The translations under genes and the position numbers were made by a program. This document shows, piece by piece, positions 12,537 to 27,804 of a DNA stretch of 64,000 nucleotides (within the stretch, counting starts at the first letter, position 1; each line of letters opens with the position of its first letter). Under the pieces are notes generated by a model. The model had not been told where the DNA came from, searched no databases, and saw only the letters and a list, made by a program, of their open reading frames with translations. This DNA is from a virus (Duplodnaviria > Heunggongvirae > Uroviricota > Caudoviricetes), in IMG/VR virus record IMGVR_UViG_3300037471_001511, positions 1-64,000 of that record; one strand, 5' to 3'.

Positions 12537-12608
12537 CACCGTCGGGCTGTTGAGGCCGGGCTAGGGCTGGACCCCACACCCAACCGTGACACGCGGACAC
12601 GCGCAAGG

Positions 12609-12645: not shown

Positions 12646-12656
12646 CTGTACGGCTT

Positions 12657-12702
12657 GTTCTACTGGAACCCGATACTTTCCTCCCCGACATCCACTGGAA
12701 TG
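12657..12702. promoter_or_regulatory. two motif-family half-palindromes (TTCTACTGGAACC, TCCACTGGAAT)
   Basis: located between the nrdJ terminator and the xis/int genes. Confidence 0.4.
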
Positions 12703-12751
12703 AACAACTCGCCGCCCGCAGGCCGGCGAGCGCCGAGTCATGGTCGCGTGC

Positions 12752-13054
12752 ATGGATCCGACTACGCTCCCGCCACGCCTGACGCGCTCGGAAGTCCTTG
12801 CTCTGGCGAGGATCAGCGACAACACGCTGCGCAAGCACATCCGCGCCGGTCGGTTCCCTGCGCCAATCGACCGCGGGAAAGAGCAACTCTTCGCGCGCGA
12901 CCAGGTACTCAAAGTGATACAATCACGCCAGCAAGTACCTGATGTACCTGCGCTTTCGGAGACAGAGTATGACCACCAGAGGCAAGAAGCGATCCGCCTC
13001 GAATTCGAAAGGATCGCCCGCCGAAGTCGAGCGAAGGTTTCTCGATCAACTTGA
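12752..13054 (+). CDS. xis: excisionase/AlpA-like HTH protein
   Basis: SEVLALARISDNTLRKHIRAGRFPAPI resembles AlpA/phage excisionase HTH; 3' end overlaps int, so the true extent is uncertain. Confidence 0.45.
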   Translation: MDPTTLPPRLTRSEVLALARISDNTLRKHIRAGRFPAPIDRGKEQLFARDQVLKVIQSRQQVPDVPALSETEYDHQRQEAIRLEFERIARRSRAKVSRST

Positions 13055-14222
13055 ACTCGGCCAGTACGTCGAGGCGCGGAAGCGTGCAAACGGCACGTAT
13101 GCGGTGCGGTTCAAACTGTCACCTGCCATGACGCCAAAGGACTGGCCCTCGGTCTGGCCGCTTCCCCGCACCGGCAATTGGCCTGGCAACCTACTCGACC
13201 CTCAAGAAGTCCAAGCCATCCGTGACGACGCCGCTGCGCTCCGCGTGGAAGTCCAGATGGCTCGGGCGACGCAGAAGGTCGATGAGAACCAGGCCCTGCA
13301 GCCTCGGACGTGGGAAACCCTACGTGACCGGTGGGAGGCCGATCCGGAATTTAAGCGTCTCGACGACACGACCAAGCACGGCTATCGCGCCAATGTCAGG
13401 CGGGCCATCAGGCTGGCCACCGAGGATAACGTTCGACCCTCGACCGCATCAGAACTGGAAATCACAACAGCTCTGAACCGGGTGACGCACCCAGTCACCC
13501 GTACGGCGACCCTTCACGCCTTCCGTGTGATGCTCCGTGACGCCAAACGGCTCGGTTGGCGCAAGGACAACCCTACCGAGGACATCAAGATCAAGGGCCG
13601 AGCCAAAGCATCGCAGCAATCCCGCGTCGGAATTTGGGAAGCCGACGACGTGGCGTTTTATGCCCGCAAGGCGGAGGAAGCCGGCCTAGTTTCACTGGCT
13701 GGCATCATTCAGACCGAGTGGGAGATCGGCCAACGCCTGACCGATGTGCGCCTGTTCCGCTACGCCAAGGACAAGAAGGATCGCGAGGGACAATACCTTC
13801 GCTCCGACGGCGTGTTCCGCTTCTGGCAGAACAAGACACAGCAGTGGGTGACCATCCCAGTTTCAGATCGTTTGATGGGCCTCCTGAACCGGCCCGGCGG
13901 AAGCCTGCTGTTCCCGCACCCCACCACTGGCGAAGCCTACACCAGTGACCAACTGACGAAGGAGTTTAACGGGCTCCGGAAGCTGGTCGGCCGGAACCGT
14001 CGCTTCCTCGAAATGAAGCACCTGCGCCACTCCTGCGTCGTTCAGTTGGCGACCGCTGAACCGGTCCCATGCGAGATCCTCGAGATCGCGGCGATCACGG
14101 GGCACACAGTCGCGTCTGTGAATACGATCATTCAGCGCTACTGCCCGAGGGACAATCGCCTGGCTTGGGCGGCGCAGCGGAAACGCGGACTGGTCCGTTC
14201 GGAGCCTGCGGTCGCCCAATAA
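12969..14222 (+). CDS. int: tyrosine integrase
   Basis: C-terminal HLRHSCVV..., ITGHT and terminal Y (RHRY catalytic pattern); N-terminal arm-binding-like region; start could be 12942 or 12969. Confidence 0.85.
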   Translation: MTTRGKKRSASNSKGSPAEVERRFLDQLELGQYVEARKRANGTYAVRFKLSPAMTPKDWPSVWPLPRTGNWPGNLLDPQEVQAIRDDAAALRVEVQMARATQKVDENQALQPRTWETLRDRWEADPEFKRLDDTTKHGYRANVRRAIRLATEDNVRPSTASELEITTALNRVTHPVTRTATLHAFRVMLRDAKRLGWRKDNPTEDIKIKGRAKASQQSRVGIWEADDVAFYARKAEEAGLVSLAGIIQTEWEIGQRLTDVRLFRYAKDKKDREGQYLRSDGVFRFWQNKTQQWVTIPVSDRLMGLLNRPGGSLLFPHPTTGEAYTSDQLTKEFNGLRKLVGRNRRFLEMKHLRHSCVVQLATAEPVPCEILEIAAITGHTVASVNTIIQRYCPRDNRLAWAAQRKRGLVRSEPAVAQ

Positions 14223-14323
14223 TGGCGTTGTCCCCAAATTGCGGTTCTGTGCGGCCCCATGAGGCTCTGTGCGGTTTCTTGTCCCCAAACATCAATAAAA
14301 TCAATAGCTTACCTCTGATTTCG

Positions 14324-14373
14324 GTGGATTCATAACCCACAGGTCGCGAGTTCGATCCTCGCCCCAGCTACCA
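14324..14373 (+). other. 3' portion of a tRNA-Met(CAT)-like gene (anticodon arm, T arm, acceptor 3' strand, CCA) with no 5' half; putative attP core
   Basis: GTGGA-TTCATAA-CCCAC anticodon arm, GCGAG-TTCGATC-CTCGC T arm, CCCAGCT-A-CCA; upstream sequence cannot form D arm or acceptor 5' strand; lies 100 bp downstream of int. Confidence 0.6.
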
Positions 14374-14400
14374 AATTTCCCCTTCTAAATCAGAGAGTTA

Positions 14401-14431
14401 GGCCCCCGGAAACGGGGGCCTCTTTTTGTTT
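14401..14431 (+). terminator. rho-independent terminator downstream of int
   Basis: GGCCCCCGG-aaa-CGGGGGCC followed by TCTTTTTGTTT. Confidence 0.65.
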
Positions 14432-14599
14432 GGGGACATTTTGGGGACATGACACTGTCCCCAACGTTTTCACACGTTCTCGAGAATCACTGGTCAATGA
14501 AATGTGGCGGGGCGGCGGGGCGCGTAACTCCCCTGTTAACGTGTCCGCCGCCCCGCCTCGTGGCTCTCCGTCCCCAGGTCGAGGGAGCCACGAACTTGT

Positions 14600-14672
14600 T
14601 GGACGCGGTCGGGATCGAACCGACGGCCGAGGACTTTAAGTTCCCCTGCTCTCACCACTGAGCTACGCGCCC
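14600..14672 (-). tRNA. tRNA-like gene (73 nt, no encoded CCA) with canonical acceptor, D and T arms but ambiguous anticodon loop
   Basis: reverse complement GGGCGCG-TA-GCTC-AGTGGTGA-GAGC-A-GGGGA-ACTTAAA-GTCCT-CGGCC-GTCGG-TTCGATC-CCGAC-CGCGTCC-A; the anticodon stem has a mismatch in either register, giving UUA or UAA. Confidence 0.65.
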
Positions 14673-14831
14673 GAAAAACACCGCTACTCCCAGAGCCGCA
14701 CGTGCGGCCCCTCGACCCGGCGCCAGTACCGCCATTTCAACGTCAGTAGCCGGTCGTAGCCCGACCCGCGCCGGAACGCTGCGGCGACCTTGCGCCGGTA
14801 CTTCCGCAGCCGATGGTGGTCAGACCACTTG

Positions 14832-15044
14832 TCAGCCGCGCCAAGCATCAGGCGAGCCCCTCGAGATCATCCGTTGGCCCAGCGCGGCCCTGTAGCCGTG
14901 CAGGAACCCGGTCCACAGGATCTGGATGTCGTGCCGGCGGTACTGGCCGTGCTCGGGGTGGCGCTGCAGGTAGGGCGGGCCTGGCGACCTGGCGCGCAGG
15001 TCCGCCTCGAACAGCTCGCGGATCGCGTCCTCGTTCCCGATCAC
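14832..15044 (-). CDS. hypothetical protein (70 aa, GTG start)
   Basis: very high GC3 in this frame; RBS GGGAGGA 5 nt upstream of GTG; GTGA overlap with upstream gene. Confidence 0.45.
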   Translation of the reverse strand: MIGNEDAIRELFEADLRARSPGPPYLQRHPEHGQYRRHDIQILWTGFLHGYRAALGQRMISRGSPDAWRG

Positions 15045-15331
15045 AGCCAATCCTCCCGGCCGCACACGGCGCAGCGATAGATGGTGTAGACGTTGCCGTG
15101 GATCGGCGGTGGCGACCAGTCGCAGATGTACTCGCCGCACCGGCCGTTCTCCGGCTCGTGCTGCAGCGCCGGATGGTCCGCTTGGATCACCGGCTCGTCG
15201 GGCATGGGCTTCAGGCCGGCGGCCTCGAGCAGCTCACCGGCCGCCTCTGCGGCGTCGACGAGCCCCAGCCCGCACCGACTGACCAAGAACGCCCCCACGG
15301 CGTTGAGCTGGGCGCGCGTGTAGTGGGTCAC
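15041..15331 (-). CDS. small zinc-ribbon-like protein
   Basis: C-terminal CGEYICDW...YRCAVCG; high GC3; alternative ATG start at 15205. Confidence 0.45.
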   Translation of the reverse strand: MTHYTRAQLNAVGAFLVSRCGLGLVDAAEAAGELLEAAGLKPMPDEPVIQADHPALQHEPENGRCGEYICDWSPPPIHGNVYTIYRCAVCGREDWL

Positions 15332-15516
15332 GACGCGAGCCCCATCCGCCTTGCGATCAGGTAGCCCAGTTCCGTCGCGGCGTGCGGGTCGTACTCTTCC
15401 TCGACCGTGACGCGCCGGCCCCGCCGACCGCGGTTCCGAGCCGCGGCCCGTTCGCGGGCGTAGTTCCACTCGATCTCGCAGCCCAAGGCCCACGGGCAGC
15501 GCCTATTCTTCGTCAC
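15328..15516 (-). CDS. hypothetical small protein (GTG start)
   Basis: high GC3, RBS GGGAGGG upstream. Confidence 0.35.
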   Translation of the reverse strand: MTKNRRCPWALGCEIEWNYARERAAARNRGRRGRRVTVEEEYDPHAATELGYLIARRMGLAS

Positions 15517-15691
15517 ACAGCCCTCCCCGCACGATGGTGGCCTTCCAGCCCTTGTGTTCGAAGTAGCTCCGGCACCACTGGGCGTTCCGGCCCAGGCACG
15601 CGTTGCGCAGGATCGGCGCAGCTTGGACGCAGACGTCCATCTTGAAGATCAGGCCGGCCACGAAATAGGGCGCCTCAACGCGGACCAGCAT
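15503..15691 (-). CDS. hypothetical Cys-containing small protein
   Basis: ORF in series with neighbours; weak. Confidence 0.3.
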   Translation of the reverse strand: MLVRVEAPYFVAGLIFKMDVCVQAAPILRNACLGRNAQWCRSYFEHKGWKATIVRGGLCDEE

Positions 15692-15950
15692 TTCGGTCGA
15701 GCCCGGCCGTCATCAGCGTGCGGTCGATCTCCCGCATCGTTTCTTCGGTGAACGAGAGCATGAAGGCGTGCGCCCAGTCCTGGGTGTAGTCGCACGACGG
15801 ACAGGCCCAGCCGGTCTCGTGCGCGATCAGCAGCTCGTCGGCGCCGGGCGCGTGCTTCTCCTTCGTGCCGCAGGTGAACCCATGGAAGCCGCCCCACTGC
15901 TGGTAGCGGTTCAGGTTCTCGACCTGCTCAGGCGTCCACGGGGCTTTCAT
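15675..15950 (-). CDS. hypothetical small protein with Cys pairs
   Basis: FTCG...CPSC motifs; overlaps neighbours by a few bp. Confidence 0.4.
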   Translation of the reverse strand: MKAPWTPEQVENLNRYQQWGGFHGFTCGTKEKHAPGADELLIAHETGWACPSCDYTQDWAHAFMLSFTEETMREIDRTLMTAGLDRNAGPR

Positions 15951-16306
15951 CCCAGCACCCCGTGTTTCTGCAACTGGGCGCGCAGCTCGAAGGCCTCGCC
16001 CCGCCGGCTCGCTTCGAAATTGTCGAGCAGGATCTTCAGCATGAGCGTGACCGCCTCAGGCCGGTCGAGCCGCTTGCCGCTCACCGCCTCGACGAACCCC
16101 GCCAAGCGGGCCGCGCCCGCGTTCACCCCGCCCATGGCGCCGGACATGGCCACGCTCAACAGGACCGCCGGGTTTCCTTCCAGCGAGGCGAGGTCCATCG
16201 TGTGTTCGAAGGCCCGTTCAATGTCGCCCTGCAGTTTATGGCACAGGTCCCGGGTCAGCTCGCCCTGTTGCCGGGCGTCCCAGACGACCTTGTCACGCGT
16301 TTCCAT
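15947..16306 (-). CDS. hypothetical protein (119 aa)
   Basis: ORF in operon series. Confidence 0.4.
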   Translation of the reverse strand: METRDKVVWDARQQGELTRDLCHKLQGDIERAFEHTMDLASLEGNPAVLLSVAMSGAMGGVNAGAARLAGFVEAVSGKRLDRPEAVTLMLKILLDNFEASRRGEAFELRAQLQKHGVLG

Positions 16307-16811
16307 TGACCATGACCTCGAGCACGTTGATGGCGGTGAGGCCGGCCCCGTAGTTTTCGGGCCAGACCCTGTCGGCGGTGGCGACGGTCTGTCGAAACCC
16401 GAACTCCTTCAGGATCATGTCGACCGCCACGATGTTGGGCAGTTTGCCGCCTTCGACCGAGACGGACAGATGGCGGGCCAGGCCCGGCGGCTGTTGTTCG
16501 TGGGTGTAGGTGACCGTGAAGCCCACGGGCAGGTCTATGGTGAACTTCAGCGGCAGCGTGCGCTTGCCGTCGCGCGAGCGAGGGTTCTCCGGATCGAAGC
16601 CCTTCGACCAGTCTTCCAGCTCTGCCAACGTGATCGGCTCGGCCTGCGCCAGCGCGATCAGCTCTTCGATCTTGGCGCGCTCGTCGGCGCCGATCACCAG
16701 TGGTCTCACTTCACCCTCCCCTTCAGCCGCACCCCGAGCTGCTCCACGATCTCCATGTGACCGGTCTCGGCTTCGGCCCAGGTCGCGTAGCGGTGGCACA
16801 GATCGGTCCAC
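16293..16811 (-). CDS. hypothetical protein; true start probably internal
   Basis: N-terminal approximately 35 aa of the track ORF are Arg/Gly-rich and look non-coding. Confidence 0.35.
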   Translation of the reverse strand: MDRSVPPLRDLGRSRDRSHGDRGAARGAAEGEGEVRPLVIGADERAKIEELIALAQAEPITLAELEDWSKGFDPENPRSRDGKRTLPLKFTIDLPVGFTVTYTHEQQPPGLARHLSVSVEGGKLPNIVAVDMILKEFGFRQTVATADRVWPENYGAGLTAINVLEVMVNGNA

Positions 16812-17077
16812 TCGTCGTTCTTCCAGTTCCCGTCCGCGGCCGGTCTGAAGATCATGGTCTCGAACAGGATCGGCGGCCCCTCGCCGAAGAAATTGTGGTC
16901 GAGTCCGAGGAACACGGTCGAGACCTCGAAACCCGACTCAAGCTTCGTGCGCGCCACCCTGCGGTCGGCCTGATCCATCCACAGCGCCCACGTCAGCAGA
17001 TCCGGCTCCGGCACCGGTTCGTGAGCGTCGTTGAGGGTGTAGCGGTCAACCATCCAAGTGCCGCCGCTCGATGTCAC
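16706..17077 (-). CDS. hypothetical protein (123 aa, Trp-rich)
   Basis: ORF in series. Confidence 0.4.
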   Translation of the reverse strand: MTSSGGTWMVDRYTLNDAHEPVPEPDLLTWALWMDQADRRVARTKLESGFEVSTVFLGLDHNFFGEGPPILFETMIFRPAADGNWKNDEWTDLCHRYATWAEAETGHMEIVEQLGVRLKGRVK

Positions 17078-17330
17078 GGCGCATCGCGTCGAGCGGCTCG
17101 GCCAGCTTCTGTGCGCGCTCGAGATCGTTCAGCGCGTCCTGGGCGATGGCGGCCACGTCGTTCCACGCCGCGTTCACGCCCTTCCAGAAGTCGGCGGTGT
17201 ACTCGGCGCCGCCGGTCGGACGGGCGTGCGCGCCCCCGCGCTCGACGATCTGCCGGAGCGCCACCTCCGCGATGGTCAGTTGGGCCGCGGCGCGCAGGCC
17301 GGCCTCGGCGAGTTCGTCTTCCCGGCTCAT
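17046..17330 (-). CDS. hypothetical protein (94 aa)
   Basis: ORF in series. Confidence 0.4.
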   Translation of the reverse strand: MSREDELAEAGLRAAAQLTIAEVALRQIVERGGAHARPTGGAEYTADFWKGVNAAWNDVAAIAQDALNDLERAQKLAEPLDAMRRDIERRHLDG

Positions 17331-17713
17331 GCGACGAACCAGCTCGGTGGCATGGGGATGGTCCCATGGTGCGGACGCCAGATGTGCAGGCAGTAGGGGT
17401 GGACGTTCTTGTAGTCCGACAGCGACGGGTGCAGCTGCATCGCCGTTTCGTGCGGCTCGAAGAACATCCGCTTGGTCTGTTCCATCTCATCCCAAGTCGG
17501 GCAGCGGTGCTCGAGCGAGACCGACACATGGTCCCAGCCCATCGCGTCGCTGACGATCGCACGCAGGATCGCGGCCTTCCGGCTGCTCTTGGACGGGTAC
17601 ATGAACACCCCTGCCTGGAAGACGCCGACGCCCTCCCACTCGCTGATCTCGCCGGTGAGCCGCAGTTCGTGGTCCCGCCGGCGCCACTTCTCGAGCGTGC
17701 GCAGGTCTACCAT
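17327..17713 (-). CDS. hypothetical protein (128 aa)
   Basis: ATG 17713 overlaps upstream TAG (ATGGTAG). Confidence 0.4.
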   Translation of the reverse strand: MVDLRTLEKWRRRDHELRLTGEISEWEGVGVFQAGVFMYPSKSSRKAAILRAIVSDAMGWDHVSVSLEHRCPTWDEMEQTKRMFFEPHETAMQLHPSLSDYKNVHPYCLHIWRPHHGTIPMPPSWFVA

Positions 17714-17949
17714 GGCTGAGACGCCTTGATTCCGATGAACTTCCAGTCGCCGCCCGGCACGTACCGGGCGGTGAAAAAGCCGCACCCGCGGCCCTGCACA
17801 GACCGTGCGACCCAAGGGGGCACGGCCTGCCTGCGCACGCCTTTGCGACCTTGAACGAACACGTCGTAGGCGCCCTCGAAGGCCTCGACCTTCACCACGA
17901 AAACGGCGCCCAGCTCGGCGTCGAACACCAGCGGTTTCACGTCGTCCAT
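17707..17949 (-). CDS. hypothetical protein (80 aa)
   Basis: C-terminal 80 codons of track ORF 17707..18468 look protein-like whereas the rest is Arg/Pro-rich; ATG 17949. Confidence 0.4.
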   Translation of the reverse strand: MDDVKPLVFDAELGAVFVVKVEAFEGAYDVFVQGRKGVRRQAVPPWVARSVQGRGCGFFTARYVPGGDWKFIGIKASQPW

Positions 17950-18515
17950 CATCGGCGATACCCCAACTTGACCTGTCGCATCGGCCGGGTGCCGCGGCCG
18001 GGCATGTCGTGGCTGGGGATCGCCACCTGCGCGCCGACGAACAACTGCGGGTACTGGGCGCGACTGTAGGTTTTCCCGGCCGGGGAAAAAATGGTGTGTC
18101 CTTCGGTTCCGCCGCCGACCACGACGATGGCCTTCAGGTCGATGGCGAGATTGCGCAAGCCCCGCTGCTGGGCCTTCCACGCGTCGGGCCGTTTCGGATC
18201 GACGTGGACCGTGAGCACCATCGGCGAGCCGTGCGGGTCGGACACGGCGACCACGAAGCCCACCTTCATCGGGTGCCACGCGTCGGGAATGTACTGGGTA
18301 GCCCGCCACAGGCAGTAGAACTCCTGACACGACTTGGGCCGCTCGGCGTACTTGGTGCAGCCGCAGCCCAGGCCCGGGGCCATCTGCAACGGGCAACGCA
18401 CGCCGGCCGGCTTGTCGGGCATCTCGTTGACGCCCAGCGCCTCGCAGCACAGGTCGCAGCCGCGGCACGACCGGCCGTTGGCTTCGATCTGGGCGATGAT
18501 GGCGTCGAAGTTCAT
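17949..18515 (-). CDS. Cys-rich protein with CRGCDLCC motif (YkgJ/UPF0153-like zinc/iron-binding)
   Basis: CRGCDLCC...C...CGC...C...C; the 18-bp palindrome copy at 18071 lies inside this ORF and encodes FSPAGK. Confidence 0.5.
   Translation of the reverse strand: MNFDAIIAQIEANGRSCRGCDLCCEALGVNEMPDKPAGVRCPLQMAPGLGCGCTKYAERPKSCQEFYCLWRATQYIPDAWHPMKVGFVVAVSDPHGSPMVLTVHVDPKRPDAWKAQQRGLRNLAIDLKAIVVVGGGTEGHTIFSPAGKTYSRAQYPQLFVGAQVAIPSHDMPGRGTRPMRQVKLGYRR
18071..18090. repeat. near-perfect copy of the TTTCCCCGGCCGGGGAAA palindrome (TTTTCCCGGCCGGGGAAAA)
   Basis: lies within a coding region, unlike the other four copies. Confidence 0.4.
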
Positions 18516-18805
18516 GACGCCCGCCGATGCTCCCGTTCGGACAGCGCCCGCATCAGCTCGCCCGTGGTGCGGCCCATCTCGAGCAGCAGCATGTTGGGGT
18601 TCTGGATCACCGTATCGAAATCGAGCGACGTGGTGAGCGCCCCCACGACACCGCCGTCGGCGCCCATCCGGCAGCAGACGACCTTGAACCCCTCCGGCTC
18701 AATCTCAAGCGTGGTCCGGTAGATGTTGCCGCCCTTGATCTGCGCTTCGCGCACGGCTGCGCCCAGGAACGCGTAGGCTTCGGCCACCGACGGTATGTGC
18801 GTCAC
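18512..18805 (-). CDS. hypothetical protein (GTG start)
   Basis: RBS GGGAAAGAAG upstream of GTG. Confidence 0.35.
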   Translation of the reverse strand: MTHIPSVAEAYAFLGAAVREAQIKGGNIYRTTLEIEPEGFKVVCCRMGADGGVVGALTTSLDFDTVIQNPNMLLLEMGRTTGELMRALSEREHRRAS

Positions 18806-19281
18806 TTCTTCTTTCCCTTCCCGAACAGCTCGTTCCACGTCTTTTCCGGATCGACCACCGGCGGAAACTCGACGCCGTCGTTGCGCGCCTTGGTGATCGC
18901 CGAGTAGACGGTGCCCACCTTGATGTTCAGCTCTCGGGCGATGTCGCCCGGCGGCATGCCCTCGATCCGAAGCTTGACCACCTGCGGCCACTTCACCTGC
19001 TCGCCGCCGTAGGTCCGCAGGTGTTCGTCCCCGAACTTCACCCCGAACTTCCGGGCCTGGGCGATCTCGGCCTTCACGGCTTGCAGCGACATGCCCTCGG
19101 CCTCGGCGATCCCTTCCGGGGTTTCGCCCCGCAGCCGCCGTTCGACGATCCGCGCCCCGGGGCTCTCGCTCACGTAGCCAGCCTGCTCGAGCGCGCCCTG
19201 CATCACCGCCTGACAGTTCGGCAGGTCGAGGAAGCGACGAACGAGGATCCAGAACTCCGCCTCGGTGAGGGGTTCGGTCAT
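18802..19281 (-). CDS. DNA-binding protein with two tandem sigma-70-region-4/GcrA-N-terminal-like HTH units
   Basis: GETPEGIAEAEGMSLQAVKAEIAQARKFG and GMPPGDIARELNIKVGTVYSAITKARNDG; basic C-terminal tail. Confidence 0.55.
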   Translation of the reverse strand: MTEPLTEAEFWILVRRFLDLPNCQAVMQGALEQAGYVSESPGARIVERRLRGETPEGIAEAEGMSLQAVKAEIAQARKFGVKFGDEHLRTYGGEQVKWPQVVKLRIEGMPPGDIARELNIKVGTVYSAITKARNDGVEFPPVVDPEKTWNELFGKGKKK

Positions 19282-19991
19282 GCGGCCTTCTTACGAACCT
19301 TGGGCAGCTTGCCGTGCTGGCGCATCCAGTAGATGTCGTTGTCGACCCGGTGCGGTTCGATTTTCAGCTCCTCGGCGATGGCTTTGTTGGTCATGCCGCG
19401 CAGGTGCAGCTTGCGGACCTCGGCGTGGCGGGCCTCGACCTCGGGGTCGCGTTTGTATGCCTTGCGCTGCGGCTTGGTGCCCTTCGCAAGGTACAGATAG
19501 TTGGCCACCTGCTTGCGGGTGACGCCCCCGCCCAGCGCCTTGGCGATGGCCCCCGGCTTCTGGCCGAGGTCCATCAGCGTCTTGGCCCGGAGCTTCTGGT
19601 CCTCGGTCAGCCCCGTTTTGTTGGACGGCGGGAACGGGTCGTCGCCGCCGCCGCTCAGGATCTTGCGCGCCGCCCCGCCTCGTGGCGCGGGCGGGAACTT
19701 CACCCCTTCGTTCACCATGCGCGCCAGCAGTTTGTGGATGATCGTCGGATCGACGTTTTCGTTCCTGGCGATCTGGGCGGGGATCTCGCCGCGCCGTCGG
19801 CGCTCGAGCACGCGGCTCTCGAAGTCCTCAGGCAGCGGGGCTTCGATGGCGAGCGGCGCCGGCCCGGCGATGGCACGGACGTGGTCCAGCAGCGTGCGCC
19901 GCGCCATGCCCCGCAGGCTGGCCAGCGCGTCGATCCAGTCGGCAGCGTCGTCGCTGGCGATGAAGGCGGCAAGCGACTGAGGATTGATCAT
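19278..19991 (-). CDS. DNA-binding protein with three tandem GcrA-N-terminal-like HTH units (paralogue of the previous gene)
   Basis: GEIPAQIARNENVDPTIIHKLLARMVNEG, GQKPGAIAKALGGGVTRKQVANYLYLAKG, GMTNKAIAEELKIEPHRVDNDIYWMRQHG; resemblance to GcrA SQIAKQLGGVTRNAVIGKVHRLG is from memory. Confidence 0.55.
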   Translation of the reverse strand: MINPQSLAAFIASDDAADWIDALASLRGMARRTLLDHVRAIAGPAPLAIEAPLPEDFESRVLERRRRGEIPAQIARNENVDPTIIHKLLARMVNEGVKFPPAPRGGAARKILSGGGDDPFPPSNKTGLTEDQKLRAKTLMDLGQKPGAIAKALGGGVTRKQVANYLYLAKGTKPQRKAYKRDPEVEARHAEVRKLHLRGMTNKAIAEELKIEPHRVDNDIYWMRQHGKLPKVRKKAA

Positions 19992-20341
19992 TTCGGCAGC
20001 ATGTAGGGGTTGACGTTGCGGTCGGCGCCGTCAGACCAGATCTTGGTCCAGCCGATGGCGCGCATCACCATGGTCATGGTGTAGTTCTGCGGGCGCTTGG
20101 TGCCGCCGTGCAGCCACCCGAGGATGGCGTAGCGGCTGACCTTGTTGCCCATTTTCTCGGTCTCGCGCTCGATCCACTCCGGCGTCTTGCCGCTCTCTCG
20201 GATCGCCGCGGTGACAAATTCCAGCTCGGGATCCTTGTCCCAGGTAAATCGGCCGGCGACTTCGGTCTTCGTCCCGATCTGGCGCAGGTCGTTCGGCTTG
20301 CGCCGGGGACCGGCTGGGTGTTGGGCGACAACAGCAGGCAC
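19988..20341 (-). CDS. hypothetical protein (117 aa)
   Basis: stop overlaps the ATG of the downstream gene. Confidence 0.4.
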   Translation of the reverse strand: MPAVVAQHPAGPRRKPNDLRQIGTKTEVAGRFTWDKDPELEFVTAAIRESGKTPEWIERETEKMGNKVSRYAILGWLHGGTKRPQNYTMTMVMRAIGWTKIWSDGADRNVNPYMLPK

Positions 20342-20353
20342 GTTTCCCTCCTT

Positions 20354-20596
20354 CTACAGGAACCACGTTTCGACGATCACAGGGTCGTCTTCTGGCGCCC
20401 TGTTGATCTGGTTGCAGAACCCTTCGCCCACGATGCGCTCCCGCAGCTCGTCAAGCGACTTCGAGATCAGGACGACACCGGTCGGTCGCGGCTCCGGCAG
20501 CGCGAACCACAGTCGGGCCACGTAGCTGTCCGGGCAGTCCGCCGGCTTGTCCGTCACCACCCAGTGTGGAAGCCAGTTCGGGTCGATGTTCGTCAT
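20354..20596 (-). CDS. hypothetical protein (about 80 aa)
   Basis: internal ATG (MTNIDPNWLPHWVV...); upstream part of track ORF is Arg/Ser-rich. Confidence 0.35.
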   Translation of the reverse strand: MTNIDPNWLPHWVVTDKPADCPDSYVARLWFALPEPRPTGVVLISKSLDELRERIVGEGFCNQINRAPEDDPVIVETWFL

Positions 20597-20704
20597 GGGT
20601 TTCGTTCCACGGAGACGGCGCGCCGCAGCGGGCGCACTCGGCCGAGAATGGCTGGTCCGTCTCGACGTCCCAAGCGTGGCCGACAAGTTTGCACCACAGA
20701 CGGA

Positions 20705-21016
20705 TCACAGGTCGGGCCTCTTAATCCCGCCCGGCGGTCGACGGATGATCGCGACGAGGAAGATGACGGTCAGCACCAGCATCAGGATGTTGGGCGCCGC
20801 GACCCATACAGGTTTGTGACCAGCGATGTTGCGCCCAAGCTCGCCGAGGTAGTTGCCGAGGACGGCCCCCCATCCCCCCAGCGCCATCGCCCGGAAGAAC
20901 TGGACGTCGCGGATCGCCAGGTCCATTACCCGTTCGAAGCGGGCAAACAGTTCTTCAATTGCTGTCGGCGCCCACGGCCCCCGCGCGCGTGGGTTCAGGT
21001 CGGGGAGGGTGTTCAC
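20705..21016 (-). CDS. membrane protein (C-terminal TM), co-transcribed with repressor
   Basis: NILMLVLTVIFLVAII TM segment; 4-bp overlap with repressor stop. Confidence 0.5.
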   Translation of the reverse strand: MNTLPDLNPRARGPWAPTAIEELFARFERVMDLAIRDVQFFRAMALGGWGAVLGNYLGELGRNIAGHKPVWVAAPNILMLVLTVIFLVAIIRRPPGGIKRPDL

Positions 21017-21645
21017 GCGACCTTCTCCACGAGGTAGCCGCTCCCGGTCGTCCGCACGGCGAGTCGTCCGGCCCCCACGCTGGCGGCCATCGACTTGACG
21101 GCCTGCGGCGAGCTGAAGATCCCGAACGGGAAGGTGATCTTCTCACCGGTGGATTTTTCGAGCAGCGATTCCATCTGCAGCCGCTCGGGCGACTTCTGCC
21201 GCCCGGTCTGCCGCGGCTGCACGGCGACGGTGACGGCGTCCTCACGGATCGGCGGCAGGTCGTTCCTGCAGCGAAGCTGACTGGCGCCTACGGCGAGATC
21301 CCTGATCAGCTTGCGCTGGGCCGGATGCAGTTCGAGCAGGGCGGTGACGATCTCATGACCGTAGTCGACCGCGAGCAGCTGCTCGAGCGGCGAGGAGGGC
21401 ATCTCGTACCCGGCCTCCAAGCCCTCGAAGAAGTAGGAAATGGGGACCTGCAGCTTCTTCGCCGCCATCATCAGGCTCGACGAGGAAACCCGGTTGGTGC
21501 CTTTCTCGTACTTCTGAACCTGCTGGAACGTGACCTCCATCGCGGTGGCCAGTTCCGATTGGGACACTCCGATCTGCTTGCGACGCGATCGGATACGAGT
21601 ACCCACGTAAACGTCGACTTCGTGCAAACCACTACCCCCGGTCAC
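21013..21645 (-). CDS. XRE-family HTH transcriptional regulator, candidate phage repressor (GTG start)
   Basis: IRSRRKQIGVSQSELATAMEVTFQQVQKYEKGTNRVSSSSLMMAAKKLQVPISYF is a classic XRE/Cro-CI HTH; about 110-aa C-terminal extension of unclear type. Confidence 0.7.
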   Translation of the reverse strand: MTGGSGLHEVDVYVGTRIRSRRKQIGVSQSELATAMEVTFQQVQKYEKGTNRVSSSSLMMAAKKLQVPISYFFEGLEAGYEMPSSPLEQLLAVDYGHEIVTALLELHPAQRKLIRDLAVGASQLRCRNDLPPIREDAVTVAVQPRQTGRQKSPERLQMESLLEKSTGEKITFPFGIFSSPQAVKSMAASVGAGRLAVRTTGSGYLVEKVA

Positions 21646-21797
21646 ATGTACCCGCGACGGTAGTAGCGTCGTTTCAGGGTTGTAAAGCCCCCTTGCGACG
21701 GCTGCGGCAAGAAATCACGATTTTTCACGATGAATGTTCGGTGAAAGACGATCACCTGAAAGAAATCGTGGGCCGGTGAACACGTTCGCTCATGAAC
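21646..21797. promoter_or_regulatory. AT-richer promoter/operator region with TCACGAT-type repeats upstream of the repressor gene
   Basis: AAATCACGAT-ttt-TCACGATG ... ACGATCAC ... AAATCGTG (21711-21772). Confidence 0.45.
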
Positions 21798-24434
21798 TCA
21801 TGTGTCGGTGGCGATGCTCGGAATAGCAACGCCGTTGATGCGCAGCGAATCGTTGGCCGGGATCGTCGTCGAATTGCGGCCGACGCGCTTGAGGTTCTGC
21901 GGCGTGTTGCCGCCCACCGCGGCCTGACCGGACTGGTCGAGCAGCCAGCGCTGCACCCAGATGTCACCGTAATTGAAATCGGTGCCGGTGTTCGTGTCCA
22001 TATAGAGCGCGTGGGTGGCCCAGTTGTTGGGCTTGAAGTTGTTGGCCGACTGGTTGTGCGTGCCGGCCACCACCCGGCAGTTGTTCATCACCACGTCGTT
22101 GACCTGGCCGACGAACCGGAAGGCCGCTCGGATGGTGGGGTGAGTCGCGCCCGAAACCACCGAGGTGTCCTGGAAGGTCATGCAGGCCGTGTCGTCGGCG
22201 GTGCAGCCGACCAGGTTCAGGGTGTGCATGTACTTCGAGTTGGCGATCACCCAGTTGTCGCCCATCGACTCCTGCCCGTGGCAGGCGATGAAGTCGGTGC
22301 GCCCGGCGCCCTCGAGCACCCAGTTGGCGTAGCGGTCCGACGTGCCGGGATCCGGCGGCGAGCCGGAGGTCGCCGACTTGCCGTTGAAGAACGACTTGCA
22401 GTTGGCGAAGCGGCACGAGGCGGTGGAGACGTAGAAGCCCGACTTGCTCGAGCCGCCCGCGTTCACACGGTCCAGGCTTAGGTCGAAGGAGTTGATTTCC
22501 ACGCCGCGCAGGGCCGAGTTGTAGATGCCGATGTCGCCGAACATCGACTCGCCGCGCAGCCAGTTGTAGGTCAGGCCGTTGCCGGCGATGTCCCACATGT
22601 GGATGTGGTGGAACCGCGTGTAGGTGTCGACGTAGTCGCCGACCTGCGGGAAGAACACCGAGCCCGCAGTGTCCTTGCTGGTGTCGAAGTAGATGCCGTG
22701 GACGAACGGTCCCGCGCCGCTGCCGCCGATGAAGTGCTTCTTGCCGTCCAGCCCGAAGCCGAACAGATGCAGGAACAGCGACGTGACGGAGTCGTAGCCG
22801 CTGGCCGGGCTCACATCCATCATGTTGATCATGGCGTCCCAGCGGCCGGCCTTGGAGCCGCCGGAGCCCGACGTGTCGGTCGCGCTGCTGGTCTTGTAGT
22901 TGCCCGGACGCGCCCACAGCTGGCACTGCAGCGGACCGTAGCCCATCAGCGCCACGCCCTGCGGGATCTTCAGCGGACCAGTCAGGTAGTTGCCGGGCGG
23001 TAGGACCACCACCGAGCTGGCGCGGGTGCGCGCCGAGGTGCCCTGCTTCTTCGCCGCGTTCAGCGCCGCCTGGATGGCGGCGGTGTCGTCGTGGCCCCAC
23101 AGCGCGCGACTGGCCGCCTGCGACGAGCCGGAGGCGGTGGTCAGGGTGACTTGGGTGGCGCTGTCGACCGAGCCGATGACCCGCGGGTTGAAAGTGCCGC
23201 CCACCGAGGCGAACCAGATGGTGGCCCCGACGTGCTCGGGCCGGAACGGACCGGACGCGGCGGTGACCGTCGTCGAGCCCGAGTTACAGACCACGTCGTG
23301 CGCTTCCTGGGCCGCACCCTTGGCGCCGTAGAGCAGCACGTTGAACGTGCGGCCGGTCATGGCCCGGGCCTTCTCGCCGAACGTCACGGCCTTCCACTCG
23401 CCCGACTGCCAGATCAGGTCGCCGTCGCCGTCCACCAGCTGGGAGTTGCTGTGGTTGAGGCCGGTGTAGGGCGTCATGCCGCCCCCACCCCCGCCGGCCG
23501 GCACCGTCCAGTTTCCCGTGCCGTTCAGGAACTTGGTGGCGTCGTTCGGGTAGGCCAGCAGCTTCGACGCGTGGGTGACGAAGGTGACCGCCGTGGTCCC
23601 CAGCGTGCCGCTCGAGGCGTCGTTGGTGCAGTAGAAGAACTTGTCGCCGTTGGTCGTGCCTTCCTGCACCTCGACGATGCACCCGGCCAGCTCGCCCCAG
23701 CTGTCCGCCTCCGGCGCGCGGGTCAGGGCGGCGCTCGACCCGTTGAACTTGTACACGCCGTTCTGCGACCCGGTGGTCTGCGACATCAGCAGCAGGTAGT
23801 CGCCGCTGGTCAGGGTCACGCCGTCGAAGATGGCCGCGCCAGGGTTGGTGACAGTGACGTTGCCGGTGGCCGCGGCCCGTGCCTTGACCGTCGTGGATGA
23901 CAGCGAGGTGCCGCCGGCGCCTGCGGCCTTGAGGTCGATCTTCCCGGTGGCGTCGTTGTAGGTGATGGTCACCGAGCTGTCGCTCGAGGTGAGCATCGCC
24001 GCAACGGTGTCCTGGATGAACTCGGCCGAGACGGTCAGATTGTAGGTGCCGCCGTTGTCGTCGTAGCTCAGCCCGACCGAGCCGTCGCTCGAGGTCAGCA
24101 TCGCGCCGACGATGTCCTGCACCGCCTCGGGCACCAGGCTGAGGTCCAGCACGTTGGCGGCGTCGTTGTAGGTCACCGCGACCGTGCCGCCGCTCGACAC
24201 CACGAACGCGCCGACGATGTCTTGGATCTGCTCGGTGGTGAGCGAGCTGCCGCCGCCGCTCGGCATGTCGCCGACGGTGTACGTGCCCCAGCCGTCGCCG
24301 GCCCGGTAGATGATCAGCTTGTCGGTCAGCTCGGCCGGGGCCAGGCTGCTGTAGCTGTTGATGTCGGTGGGCAGACCGCCGCTGCCGCTCAGCGTGGTCG
24401 AGCCGCCACCGGTGGGACCGAGGTTCACAGGCAT
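21798..24434 (-). CDS. tail fibre/tailspike with probable polysaccharide-depolymerase (beta-helix) domain
   Basis: N-terminal triple repeat (VAVTYNDAANVLDLSL, VGLSYDDNGGTYNLTV, VTITYNDATGKIDLKA); long Gly/Thr/Asn-rich beta-helix-like C-terminal part. Confidence 0.65.
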   Translation of the reverse strand: MPVNLGPTGGGSTTLSGSGGLPTDINSYSSLAPAELTDKLIIYRAGDGWGTYTVGDMPSGGGSSLTTEQIQDIVGAFVVSSGGTVAVTYNDAANVLDLSLVPEAVQDIVGAMLTSSDGSVGLSYDDNGGTYNLTVSAEFIQDTVAAMLTSSDSSVTITYNDATGKIDLKAAGAGGTSLSSTTVKARAAATGNVTVTNPGAAIFDGVTLTSGDYLLLMSQTTGSQNGVYKFNGSSAALTRAPEADSWGELAGCIVEVQEGTTNGDKFFYCTNDASSGTLGTTAVTFVTHASKLLAYPNDATKFLNGTGNWTVPAGGGGGGMTPYTGLNHSNSQLVDGDGDLIWQSGEWKAVTFGEKARAMTGRTFNVLLYGAKGAAQEAHDVVCNSGSTTVTAASGPFRPEHVGATIWFASVGGTFNPRVIGSVDSATQVTLTTASGSSQAASRALWGHDDTAAIQAALNAAKKQGTSARTRASSVVVLPPGNYLTGPLKIPQGVALMGYGPLQCQLWARPGNYKTSSATDTSGSGGSKAGRWDAMINMMDVSPASGYDSVTSLFLHLFGFGLDGKKHFIGGSGAGPFVHGIYFDTSKDTAGSVFFPQVGDYVDTYTRFHHIHMWDIAGNGLTYNWLRGESMFGDIGIYNSALRGVEINSFDLSLDRVNAGGSSKSGFYVSTASCRFANCKSFFNGKSATSGSPPDPGTSDRYANWVLEGAGRTDFIACHGQESMGDNWVIANSKYMHTLNLVGCTADDTACMTFQDTSVVSGATHPTIRAAFRFVGQVNDVVMNNCRVVAGTHNQSANNFKPNNWATHALYMDTNTGTDFNYGDIWVQRWLLDQSGQAAVGGNTPQNLKRVGRNSTTIPANDSLRINGVAIPSIATDT

Positions 24435-24862
24435 CAGCGGCTCCGATACGGCACGATGTTGACGGTGACGCTGCCGCTGGCCGACTTGAACTTGACGACG
24501 GCTCCCTCCTCGACCGGGAAGTTCTCAGGCCCCATCACGTAACCGGCGGCGCCGCTGGCGTCGCTGGTCGCCTTCCCGTCGGTGCGGATCCACAGCGAGC
24601 CGCCGATCGGCACCAAGCGGATGTAGCGACACGCGGCCGGGACCGTGTACGAGGCGTCCGCCGTCTCGTCGACGAAAACGTTCCGCGCGAAGTTGAAGTC
24701 GAGTAGAGGATCCTCCGCCGGGTGGAACGCGCGAGGGTCGATAGGAAGTCCCGTCTCGGGATCGGTCGCCAAGTGCATCGGCGCGTAGATCGGCACGCCG
24801 TCGTCCGCGACTTGTACAGCCGCGTAGTCGAACTGCGTCTTCCGCTCGATGGGATTGACCAT
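24434..24862 (-). CDS. hypothetical tail-associated protein (142 aa)
   Basis: first gene of the leftward tail-fibre operon; ATGA overlap with tail fibre. Confidence 0.45.
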   Translation of the reverse strand: MVNPIERKTQFDYAAVQVADDGVPIYAPMHLATDPETGLPIDPRAFHPAEDPLLDFNFARNVFVDETADASYTVPAACRYIRLVPIGGSLWIRTDGKATSDASGAAGYVMGPENFPVEEGAVVKFKSASGSVTVNIVPYRSR

Positions 24863-25067
24863 GGCGCACCTGGCATACGGCCGAGCAGCCGTAACATCGG
24901 GGTGCCCTTGACCCGGCGATTATCTTTGATGATCTAATGGAAGCGGACCCGCCCTACCCAGCATTGGGCAGGCGGGTCCGGGGGTCTCTCGACGCCGTGA
25001 CTAGACGGGGTCGAAGGATCGCTCTTATGGTGAAGACCGTCCCTCAGGCAACGGGGACGTGCGATCC

Positions 25068-25104
25068 GGTTCCAGCGGAACAGTTTCTTAGTTCCACTGG
25101 AACC
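25068..25104. promoter_or_regulatory. tandem motif copies GGTTCCAGCGGAAC and GTTCCACTGGAACC
   Basis: two copies 10 bp apart in the 310-bp gap upstream of the tail-fibre operon. Confidence 0.5.
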
Positions 25105-25172
25105 GGACAGTTCGTTGATCGGCGCTGATCAACGCAGGTGTATGTACGAGTCGGCCACGGGGTTGTGGCTCT

Positions 25173-25907
25173 CTACTCCTGACACGAACTCGGGGCGGAT
25201 CCGCAAAGGTCCGCCCTCTCTTTTAAGGCCCGGAAGGCCTTCACCCACCGTCGGCACAGGTCGCTGCGGACCACGTCCTCTTCGGTGAATTTGGTCACTG
25301 CGTGAGGGATGTCCTCCGCCCACGCCATCTGCAGCAACGTCGCAAGCACCCGTTCATCGGGAACGCGGTCGGACTGGTCGGGATCGCCTTCGATCACCAG
25401 ACGCGTGCCCGGTCCGTGCCTGGTCAGGACAGCCTCGGCCTGTTTCAACGACAGGTTTTGGGCTTCCGACACATGCACCAGAGCGTTGCTAAATGTCCTC
25501 CCTCGAATGTGAGCGATGGTGCAAAACTCGATGCGCTGTTGGTCTAACCAATTTCGAGTCCTGTCAACACCAGCGATCAAACGCACTTCCTGCAGCACCG
25601 GTTTCATCCATGGCTCAGTTTTTTGGTTTAGCGAGCCAGGCAGGTATCCCATCTCCTCGTCGTCCACCGCTATTGTTGGCCGGACGATGATGTACTTCTC
25701 GATCCCGCGCAGCGGATCTTCATCGTATTCGAGTAGACCTGCAACCGCTCTGTGCGCCGTTACATAGGTCTTGCCGGTCCCGGCGGGGCCGATCGCGAAG
25801 ACGAGGTCCGCAGAATTCAACTGCTCATGATAGCGTTGCTGGTTGGGCCGGCGGGCGCGAAAGGGCGGCAGCGGCTGGGGATCTGCCTTCTTCTTGCGCT
25901 GGGTCAA
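25173..25907 (-). CDS. phoH: PhoH-like ATPase
   Basis: Walker A VFAIGPAGTGKTY and PhoH-family core. Confidence 0.8.
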   Translation of the reverse strand: MTQRKKKADPQPLPPFRARRPNQQRYHEQLNSADLVFAIGPAGTGKTYVTAHRAVAGLLEYDEDPLRGIEKYIIVRPTIAVDDEEMGYLPGSLNQKTEPWMKPVLQEVRLIAGVDRTRNWLDQQRIEFCTIAHIRGRTFSNALVHVSEAQNLSLKQAEAVLTRHGPGTRLVIEGDPDQSDRVPDERVLATLLQMAWAEDIPHAVTKFTEEDVVRSDLCRRWVKAFRALKERADLCGSAPSSCQE

Positions 25908-27801: not shown

Positions 27802-27804
27802 TAA

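What the first reader, a model, noticed from the sequence alone, without database searches (positions are those of the whole stretch)
18802..19991. Two adjacent paralogues built from tandem GcrA-N-terminal-like (sigma-70 region-4-like) HTH units, two and three repeats
Five repeats follow G-x-(T/P)-x-x-I-A-x-x-L-x-I/V-x-x-x-V-x-x-x-I-x-x-A-R-x-x-G. This matches my recollection of the DNA-binding domain of the alphaproteobacterial cell-cycle regulator GcrA (SQIAKQLGGVTRNAVIGKVHRLG). Multi-HTH versions are unusual. They could recognise direct or palindromic repeats such as the GTTCCAnTGGAAC family, or redirect host RNA polymerase to phage promoters in a GcrA-like way.
Basis: partly seen in the sequence, partly recalled or inferred. 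Interest (0 to 1): 0.6.

Follow-up and report, generated by a model that had tools for sequence, protein, structure and literature searches.

The report
Phage tandem helix-turn-helix DNA-binding pair
Two neighbouring genes of a Caulobacter-phage-Seuss-like virus encode small proteins made of two and three generic helix-turn-helix DNA-binding modules; they belong to an uncharacterised phage family that travels with a conserved partner gene, and they are not relatives of the cell-cycle regulator GcrA.

Summary
Window 19278-19991 (A, 237 aa) and 18802-19281 (B, 159 aa) are real minus-strand genes joined by ATGA overlaps. They carry three and two tri-helical HTH units; A's middle unit is degenerate but significant.

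New here:
- A and B belong to an unannotated phage family with a conserved ~45-aa N-terminal helical domain plus 1-3 HTH units.
- I collected 13 further family members from metagenome and IMG/VR sequences.
- A conserved ~120-aa partner gene precedes the family gene in 13 of 14 partner-bearing loci.

The most likely function is sequence-specific DNA binding that regulates phage or host transcription, reading composite sites as Pax, Cbp1/Cbp2 and Tc1 PAI-RED domains do. This is inferred, not shown. A link to the window's enriched GTTCCAnTGGAAC palindrome is untested and gets no support from relatives. Multi-HTH proteins are common in phages, so interest is modest.

The parts
19278..19991 (-). 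Gene A (237 aa, P0001): N-terminal three-helix domain plus three HTH units. Strongly basic (pI 10.1, net +15), with a basic C-terminal tail KLPKVRKKAA.
   Evidence: ORF and GC3; HTH_23 26.3 bits in 3 stretches; AF2 model; charge.
19857..19991 (-). A residues 1-45: the family-defining N-terminal helical domain (M-I-x-P-x-x-L-A-x-F...PDA...G-P-x-R). No Pfam or PDB match.
   Evidence: Conserved in P0003, P0016, P0026, P0034 and 10 IMG/VR proteins. Helices 4-12, 16-25 and 29-42.
19689..19823 (-). A HTH unit 1 (aa 57-101), ending in the G-V-K-F-P-P tail.
   Evidence: Unit HMM 66.3 bits; BLASTP to both B units, E ~5e-6; helices 57-66, 71-78, 82-94.
19482..19604 (-). A HTH unit 2 (aa 130-170). Degenerate; contains the LGGGVTRKQV stretch that resembles GcrA by eye.
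   Evidence: Held-out HMM score 9.5-12.1 bits, 0 of 2000 shuffles reach it. Only two helices are predicted confidently. GcrA model 12.6 bits against a cutoff of 280.
19308..19445 (-). A HTH unit 3 (aa 183-228), the best-predicted unit.
   Evidence: Unit HMM 66.2 bits; block pLDDT 86-92; local Foldseek matches to NarL, DegU and GerE DNA-binding domains, rmsd 1.6-2.2 A, 31-35% identity (the table does not say which unit of A is aligned).
18802..19281 (-). Gene B (159 aa, P0002): shortened N-terminal domain plus two HTH units. Near-neutral (pI 6.6, net 0), with a basic tail GKGKKK.
   Evidence: ORF; Sigma70_r4_2 48.8 bits and HTH_23 34.8 bits; AF2 model; 34% identity over 139 aa to P0026, E 1.6e-15.
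19033..19161 (-). B HTH unit 1 (aa 41-83).
   Evidence: Unit HMM 70.5 bits; helices 41-50, 55-62, 66-78.
18856..18990 (-). B HTH unit 2 (aa 98-142). The most ECF-sigma-region-4.2-like unit (GTVYSAITKAR), ending in G-V-E-F-P-P.
   Evidence: Best Sigma70_r4_2 stretch 101-133; unit HMM 69.8 bits; helices 98-106, 111-118, 122-134.
19988..20341 (-). Conserved partner gene (117 aa; invariant T-K-R/K-P-Q-N-Y-T motif). Translationally coupled to A by an ATGA overlap. Fold unknown.
   Evidence: Homologues lie directly upstream of family members in L004, L005 and L006 (E 7e-23, 9e-31, 8e-16) and in 9 of 10 IMG/VR loci. No Pfam, NCBIfam or PDB match.
21013..21645 (-). First gene of the same leftward block: an XRE/Cro-CI-type HTH_3 regulator (210 aa as the longest ORF; called as 175 aa in L001).
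   Evidence: PF01381 42.1 bits; PHROG transcriptional regulator/repressor families.
21646..21797 (-). 152-bp intergenic region upstream of the block, and the likely location of its promoter. No consensus promoter could be called.
   Evidence: Sequence read. The sigma-70 scan found none in 12000-28000. This is inference only.

Best explanation
A and B are members of an uncharacterised phage protein family: a short N-terminal helical domain followed by one to three tri-helical HTH modules, joined by flexible and partly basic linkers.

The most likely mechanism is sequence-specific DNA binding. Each HTH module would sit in a major groove, and the linked modules together would read a long composite site made of direct or mixed-orientation half-sites. 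Pax paired domains, Tc1/Sleeping Beauty PAI-RED domains and the archaeal Cbp1 (three units) and Cbp2 (two units) work this way. Binding would switch phage, and possibly host, transcription.

The N-terminal domain is proposed to mediate oligomerisation or contact with the conserved, translationally coupled 117-aa partner protein. B is uncharged, so it may modulate A, for example through the shared N-terminal domain, rather than being the main DNA binder.

Shown: the gene structure, the five HTH units, the family, and the partner linkage. Inferred: DNA binding, the regulatory role, the partner interaction, and the division of labour between A and B.
For: HTH identity: HTH_23 and Sigma70_r4_2 score above the Pfam thresholds. 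HTH_23 is found in 14 of 15 family members. AF2 predicts three-helix units. Local structural matches to DNA-bound HTH domains have rmsd 1.3-2.2 A (NarL/DNA 1je8, DeoR/operator 7bhy and 8r7y).

The family profile matches the Sleeping Beauty PAI subdomain (E 3.7e-4) and the two-HTH Cbp2 across both of its units (2lvs, E 1.4e-3). Cbp1/Cbp2 are established multi-HTH binders of DNA repeats (PMC3597662).

A is highly basic (pI 10.1, +15), with basic linkers and a basic tail.

The genes sit in a 22-gene block of small phage genes headed by an XRE regulator. The genome is Seuss-like, and I found no phage RNA polymerase among the annotated large genes. Such a phage would have to reprogram host RNAP.

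The partner gene is linked in 13 of 14 partner-bearing loci, and with 4-nt overlaps in at least five of them (window, L004-L006, L014).
Against: There is no experimental or comparative evidence for any DNA target. No operator-like repeats were identified next to the genes. The window's enriched palindrome is absent from all loci that carry relatives.

B is neutral overall, and the recognition helices of the first units are rather acidic, which is atypical for DNA readers.

Both AF2 models have low global confidence (pTM 0.32 and 0.39) and rest on 4-5 sequence alignments.

HTH-clan folds are also used for protein-protein contacts; sigma region 4 binding the beta flap is one example.
Confidence: 0.6

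Rival explanations
1. Sigma region-4 surrogate or appropriator. One or both proteins, B above all, bind host RNA polymerase (beta-flap tip or sigma) through their region-4-like modules. They would then replace or reposition sigma region 4 and redirect RNAP to phage promoters, possibly those marked by the GGAAC-containing palindrome.
Against: There is no region 2 or any other sigma part, so this is not a sigma factor. Family-wide, the units fit HTH_23 better than region 4 (14 against 6 of 15). No sigma chain appears in the profile-against-PDB list at E<=1. I found no consistent -10-like element at ECF spacing downstream of the palindromes (read). The palindrome is absent from relatives' loci.
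Confidence: 0.12
2. GcrA-like sigma-70 cofactor. The HTH units are GcrA-type DNA-binding domains and the proteins ride on sigma-70 to activate promoters.
For: A's middle unit (IAKALGGGVTRKQV) resembles the GcrA motif by eye, and the NCBIfam GcrA model gives a faint hit there (E 0.12). The distant relative P0004 scores 24.6 bits on PF07750, below the cutoff of 26.9. The host range is probably alphaproteobacterial.
Confidence: 0.03
3. A DNA-binding accessory factor for something other than transcription: recombination directionality or excision, packaging-site recognition (small-terminase-like), replication-origin binding, or partition.
Against: The window phage has no integrase among the annotated genes, and its closest relative Seuss carries none either. 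The genes are 35 kb from TerL. There is no oligomerisation domain typical of small terminases. The context differs among relatives (tail fibre, integrase, RNA ligase), which points to a self-contained regulatory cassette.
Confidence: 0.15
4. A domesticated or decayed DNA-binding domain of an IS630/Tc1-type transposase with no current function. JGI's automatic name for A is 'transposase'.
For: HTH_23, HTH_28 and HTH_29 hits; a weak IS630 NCBIfam hit (16.5 bits against a cutoff of 100); Sleeping Beauty PAI match at E 3.7e-4; the JGI name.
Against: There is no DDE catalytic domain and no terminal inverted repeats. The family is conserved across 15 proteins with its own N-terminal domain and a coupled partner. 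Codon-position GC is that of a real gene.
Confidence: 0.05

Closest known systems
Cbp1 / Cbp2, archaeal CRISPR-repeat-binding proteins (PDB 2LVS; PMC3597662)
   Different: They are archaeal chromosomal genes, not phage genes. They lack the N-terminal domain and the partner gene. Sequence similarity is marginal, and their target (CRISPR repeats) has no counterpart here.
Paired-type bipartite HTH (Pax paired domain; PAI-RED of Tc1/mariner and Sleeping Beauty transposases; Pfam HTH_23/HTH_28/HTH_29)
   Same: Best family-wide Pfam model (HTH_23, 14 of 15). Sleeping Beauty PAI matches at E 3.7e-4. There are weak PAX hits covering A unit 1 plus its G-V-K-F-P-P...GG tail. The principle is the same: linked HTH modules read a composite site.
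   Different: No transposase catalytic domain. There are up to three units. The N-terminal domain is specific to this family. A scores only just above threshold (26.3 against 24.6 bits).
Sigma-70 region 4, ECF type (PF08281), and LuxR/GerE/NarL effector domains
   Same: B passes PF08281 (48.8 bits). B unit 2 carries the G-T-V-x-S-x-I-x-K-A-R signature. Local superpositions on NarL, DegU and GerE have rmsd 1.6-2.2 A at 31-35% identity.
   Different: No sigma region 2 and no receiver domain. A scores 12 bits on PF08281. No sigma chain reaches E<=1 with the family profile.
GcrA (PF07750 / NF050816; PDB 5YIU-5YIX; PMC5887438)
   Different: The family models do not match. The CCCH sigma-interacting domain is absent. 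GcrA has one HTH, not two or three. The m6A-reading residues cannot be aligned with confidence.
Poly-HTH repeat proteins found in the exhaustive search (P0004-P0010, P0012)
   Same: The same unit type (R-R-x-x-V-x-x-L-x-x-E-G-K-x-x-x-E-I-A-x-E-L-G-V-S-x-x-T-V), repeated 4-8 times. They are the best non-family hits to A (E 3e-13 to 4e-9).
   Different: They are low-GC, K/E-rich proteins, and at least one is chromosomal, next to secY. They lack the N-terminal domain and the partner. All are uncharacterised.

Membership tests
GcrA (PF07750 / NCBIfam NF050816) | Sequence match to the family model above the curated cutoff | tested here: not met
   PF07750 is absent at E<=10 for A and B. NF050816 scores 12.6 bits against a cutoff of 280, E 0.12, on A127-181 only.
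GcrA (PF07750 / NCBIfam NF050816) | C-terminal sigma-70-domain-2-interacting domain with a CCCH zinc finger (C-X14-C-X9-C-X2-H; PMC5887438) | tested here: not met
   A has 0 Cys and B has 1 Cys. No non-HTH C-terminal domain appears in the AF2 models.
GcrA (PF07750 / NCBIfam NF050816) | DNA-binding domain specifically closest to the GcrA DNA-binding domain | tested here: not met
GcrA (PF07750 / NCBIfam NF050816) | Preferential binding of m6A-methylated GANTC-type sites and a stable complex with RNAP-sigma70 | not testable with these tools
   Needs EMSA with methylated DNA and a pull-down or two-hybrid assay.
Sigma-70 family sigma factor | Region 4 HTH (PF08281 / PF04545) | tested here: inconclusive
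   B: PF08281 48.8 bits (cutoff 25.7) in two stretches. A: 12 bits, below the cutoff. 6 of 15 family members match at E<=0.01.
Sigma-70 family sigma factor | Region 2 (core binding and -10 recognition; PF04542) | tested here: not met
   No region 2 hit in A or B at E<=10. The NCBIfam ECF models match only their region-4 ends and score far below their cutoffs.
HTH_23 'homeodomain-like' / paired-type HTH (PF13384) | Model match above the cutoff | tested here: met
   A 26.3 bits and B 34.8 bits against a cutoff of 24.6. 14 of 15 family members match.
HTH_23 'homeodomain-like' / paired-type HTH (PF13384) | Tri-helical HTH fold | tested here: met
   AF2 gives three helices per unit in four of the five units, with local rmsd 1.3-2.2 A to solved HTH domains. 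Global model confidence is low.
IS630/Tc1-type transposase (JGI name for A) | DDE/DDD catalytic domain after the HTH region | tested here: not met
   NF033545 scores 16.5 bits against a cutoff of 100 and covers only the N-terminal HTH part. The proteins end after the last HTH unit.
Cbp1/Cbp2-type multi-HTH DNA-repeat binders | A protein consisting of 2-3 linked homeodomain-like HTH units | tested here: met
   The profile matches 2lvs over both units at E 1.4e-3. This is an architectural resemblance; common descent is not shown.
Cbp1/Cbp2-type multi-HTH DNA-repeat binders | Specific binding to reiterated DNA repeats | not testable with these tools
   Needs EMSA or DAP-seq. No candidate repeat array was found beside the genes.
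New family: N-terminal domain + 1-3 HTH units, with coupled partner (defined here) | Conserved N-terminal ~45-aa domain (I-x-P-x-x-L-A-x-F...P-D/G-A...G-P-x-R) | tested here: met
   A has the full domain. B has a shortened version that aligns at M1, F10 and L31.
New family: N-terminal domain + 1-3 HTH units, with coupled partner (defined here) | Partner gene (T-K-R-P-Q-N-Y-T motif) immediately upstream on the same strand | tested here: met
   Window 19988-20341 overlaps A by 4 nt. The same arrangement is seen in L004, L005 and L006, and 9 of 10 IMG/VR loci have a family member 0-660 nt downstream of the partner.

The most novel reading that the evidence does not exclude
The conserved cassette (partner protein plus N-domain multi-HTH protein, duplicated here as A and B) is a previously unrecognised phage promoter-specificity module. 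The region-4-like HTH units would stand in for, or reposition, host sigma region 4, and would direct host RNA polymerase to phage promoters marked by the intergenic GGAAC-containing palindrome GTTCCAnTGGAAC. That would be a new route to sigma appropriation in alphaproteobacterial phages.
Probability: 0.07. Interest if true: 0.7.

Novelty: new variant of a known kind. Interest (0 to 1): 0.3.

Why it matters
Phages without their own RNA polymerase must reprogram host transcription, and for Caulobacter-type siphophages such as Seuss nothing is known about how they do it. This work defines a small unannotated phage family with a clear signature: an N-terminal domain, 1-3 HTH modules and a translationally coupled partner. 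That makes it a concrete, cheap candidate for DAP-seq or EMSA and for knock-outs. It also corrects two misleading labels: the pipeline name 'transposase' and the first-pass reading 'GcrA-like'. If the proteins turn out to be plain DNA-binding regulators, as is most likely, the result is a routine annotation gain rather than a discovery.

Tried and rejected
1. GcrA membership: rejected.

2. Sigma factor: rejected, because region 2 is missing.

3. Transposase (JGI name): rejected, because there is no catalytic domain.

4. Homologues by word-index search and by tblastn against 50,697 phage genomes: nothing beyond the query itself. Relatives appeared only with exhaustive HMMER and pattern scans of IMG/VR.

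5. Synteny with the closest cultured relative, Caulobacter phage Seuss: the structural and replication modules are conserved at 35-64% identity. I detected no Seuss homologue for any tested ORF between 12.5 and 28 kb, so Seuss tells us nothing about A and B.

6. Palindrome as target: GTTCCAnTGGAAC is enriched (16 sites at <=2 mismatches against 1.9 expected; all 10 sites with <=1 mismatch are intergenic). Seuss has one site, and L004-L025, which carry relatives, have none. I saw no consistent ECF-like -10 element downstream. The link is therefore left open and is not claimed.

7. PDB 8VD6 'CAP repeat', the top profile hit (E 6e-5), is a de novo designed repeat protein (PMC12339374) and is uninformative.

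8. Partner protein: no Pfam, NCBIfam, PHROG or PDB-sequence match.

9. Whole-chain Foldseek against the PDB gave no significant hit, as expected for beads-on-a-string models.

10. The sigma-70 promoter scan found no promoter in 12-28 kb.
Full report
**Setting.** The window is 66-67% GC and is a tailed-phage genome. It encodes:
- a large terminase (54756-56606), portal and major head protein;
- a 2013-aa ORF homologous to the Seuss tape-measure protein, and a 1484-aa ORF homologous to the Seuss central tail fibre J;
- an endolysin;
- a DNA primase, DNA polymerase, SbcCD-like nuclease and ribonucleotide reductase.

The closest cultured relative is Caulobacter phage Seuss: TerL is 63.5% identical, and most structural and replication genes are 35-64% identical. 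The same sequence occurs on a 74,060-bp JGI contig and on a 14.3-kb Logan contig.

The two ORFs of the finding lie in a leftward block of about 22 small, tightly packed genes (about 21645 down to 14684). An XRE/Cro-type HTH_3 gene heads the block (21013-21645). The block ends at a tRNA-Leu (14600-14672) and a hairpin at 14400-14421. I detected no Seuss homologue for any tested ORF between about 12.5 and 28 kb.

**Check of the observation.** A (19278-19991, 237 aa) and B (18802-19281, 159 aa) are the only ORFs here with gene-like codon-position GC (GC3 0.89). The partner/A, A/B and B/next-gene junctions are ATGA, ATGA and GTGA overlaps, so these genes are translationally coupled.

BLASTP relates A59-101 to both B units (E 4e-6 and 6e-6), and A186-227 to B95-136 (E 0.011). 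I built a unit HMM without A's middle unit. It scores the four good units at 66-70 bits (these were in the training set) and the held-out A143-170 at 9.5 bits. As an isolated segment that unit scores 12.1 bits, while 2000 shuffles reach at most 5.1.

AlphaFold2 gives three-helix units at A57-94, A183-225, B41-78 and B98-134 (block pLDDT 77-92). The linkers are disordered. A's middle unit is only partly formed. The mean pLDDT is 70.5 for A and 68.7 for B, with pTM 0.32 and 0.39.

**What the units are.** Pfam places B in Sigma70_r4_2 (48.8 bits, cutoff 25.7) and HTH_23 (34.8 bits). A reaches only HTH_23 (26.3 bits, cutoff 24.6). Sub-threshold hits go to the resolvase HTH_7, GerE, HTH_28/29 and PAX.

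GcrA-specific models fail:
- PF07750 does not hit A or B.
- NF050816 scores 12.6 bits against a cutoff of 280.
- No GcrA chain appears in any sequence search of the PDB.
- GcrA works through a C-terminal CCCH zinc-finger domain that binds sigma-70 domain 2 (PMC5887438). A has no cysteine and B has one.

The units are therefore generic tri-helical HTH modules of the sigma-r4 / LuxR / resolvase / paired group. They are not GcrA domains.

**The family.** Word-index searches and tblastn against phage genomes found only the query itself. An exhaustive HMMER search with A found 35 proteins. These fall into two groups.

The first group, P0003, P0016, P0026 and P0034, shares A's N-terminal ~45 residues (M-I-x-P-x-x-L-A-x-F...P-D-A...G-P-x-R) followed by one or two HTH units.

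The second group is low-GC proteins with 4-8 tandem copies of the same unit type (P0004-P0010, P0012). At least one is chromosomal, lying next to secY.

B aligns with P0026 over 139 residues (34% identity, E 1.6e-15). That is better than its match to A, and the alignment includes a shortened N-terminal domain. A and B are thus two members of one family rather than a recent tandem duplicate.

Pattern scans of IMG/VR added ten more family proteins of 279-395 aa. In most of them three HTH-like units are visible in the alignment, as in A, although the unit HMM scores only one to three per protein. In the 15-sequence alignment, HTH_23 matches 14 members and Sigma70_r4_2 matches 6.

The family profile finds the Sleeping Beauty PAI subdomain (E 3.7e-4) and the two-HTH CRISPR-repeat-binding protein Cbp2 over both of its units (E 1.4e-3). 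No sigma or GcrA chain reaches E<=1. The top hit, 8VD6, is a designed protein and was set aside.

**A conserved partner.** The 117-aa gene directly upstream of A (19988-20341) has homologues directly upstream of the family member in L004 (58% identity), L005 (48%) and L006, each with a 1-4-nt overlap. In 9 of 10 IMG/VR loci found with the partner profile, a family member lies 0-660 nt downstream on the same strand.

The partner has an invariant T-K-(R/K)-P-Q-N-Y-T motif and no match in Pfam, NCBIfam, PHROGs or PDB sequences.

The surroundings of the cassette differ between phages: RNA ligase, HNH and Macro genes in L004, a tail fibre in L017, an integrase in L016. It therefore behaves as a self-contained two-gene module.

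**Mechanism.** The best-supported reading is that these are sequence-specific DNA-binding regulators. Their linked HTH modules would together read a composite site, as in Pax, Tc1/Sleeping Beauty PAI-RED and Cbp1/Cbp2 (PMC3597662). The evidence is:
- the fold and family matches above;
- A's strong positive charge (pI 10.1, +15), with basic linkers and tail;
- the location in a small-gene block headed by an XRE regulator;
- a phage in which I found no RNA polymerase gene.

DNA binding, the target site, the regulatory role and the partner interaction are all inferred. B is uncharged (pI 6.6). It may act as a modulator of A or as a protein-binding module. That keeps open the rival in which region-4-like units contact RNA polymerase.

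**The palindrome.** GTTCCAnTGGAAC is truly enriched: 16 sites at <=2 mismatches against 1.9 expected, with none of 100 shuffles reaching 16. All ten sites with <=1 mismatch are intergenic. Several occur in pairs, and some are followed by C-n-G-A-C-A-G-T-T.

Seuss has one site. No locus carrying a relative of A or B has any. The motif contains inverted GGAAC, which from general knowledge is the common -35 core of ECF-type promoters, and B unit 2 is the most ECF-region-4-like unit. I saw no matching -10 element at ECF spacing.

The link is a lead, not a result. The XRE protein or the partner are equally plausible binders.

**Novelty and score.** Multi-HTH proteins are not rare. Cbp1/Cbp2, Pax, Myb and Tc1 are characterised examples, BFVD holds many uncharacterised multi-HTH phage proteins, and metagenomes hold arrays of up to eight units.

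What is new is modest: an unannotated phage family defined by its N-terminal domain and its coupled partner gene, and here present in two copies. I rate it a new variant of a known kind, with interest 0.3.

Noticed in passing
window 1570, 12657, 25069, 25091, 34838, 34902, 43064, 56535, 56553, 59958 (13-bp sites): The palindrome GTTCCAnTGGAAC is strongly enriched: 16 sites at <=2 mismatches against 1.9 expected. All 10 sites with <=1 mismatch are intergenic, often in pairs 18-22 bp apart, and some are followed by CnGACAGTT. 34838-34914 is a cluster of TTCCAC half-sites inside a 450-bp gap in the tail module. Seuss has only one site. It is a likely phage-specific operator or promoter element, and the binder is unknown.
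   Followed up: partly
window 60790-60807, 61718-61735, 62049-62066, 62861-62878; partial copies at 6887, 18075, 30462: A second repeated perfect palindrome, TTTCCCCGGCCGGGGAAA, occurs four times between 60.8 and 62.9 kb. This region of small genes lies downstream of the primase. The sites could be hairpin terminators or regulatory stem-loops (k-mer count).
   Followed up: no
window 19988-20341 (-): A 117-aa protein with an invariant TK(R/K)PQNYT motif is conserved and translationally coupled upstream of the multi-HTH family in 13 of 14 partner-bearing loci. It has no match in any family or structure library. By eye its core resembles an XRE-type HTH.
   Followed up: partly
window 14600-14672 (-) and 14400-14421: A tRNA-Leu (anticodon TAA) closes the leftward small-gene block. 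A GC-rich hairpin follows it, where the block converges with the rightward 417-aa gene and ribonucleotide reductase module.
   Followed up: no
window 21798-24434 (-): An 878-aa protein whose residues ~160-390 match PHROG 'head decoration / virion structural' families. It sits after the lysis genes and just upstream of the regulatory block. I detected no Seuss homologue.
   Followed up: no
window 17327-17815 (-): A DUF7694 protein (85 bits) lies in the same small-gene block. The neighbouring 188-aa ORF (17949-18515) is Cys-rich and matches phrog_9155, of unknown function.
   Followed up: no
L007 172-1875; P0004-P0010, P0012: Proteins made of 4-8 tandem ~50-aa HTH repeats exist in low-GC metagenomic organisms. 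One lies next to secY and the ribosomal protein L15 gene, so it is chromosomal. This is an uncharacterised poly-HTH architecture.
   Followed up: partly
window 54756-56606 (-): The longest TerL ORF extends over the palindrome pair at 56535-56565, and the PHROG match begins at residue 49. The true TerL start is probably downstream, which would leave a divergent regulatory region between TerL and the gene starting at 56627.
   Followed up: no
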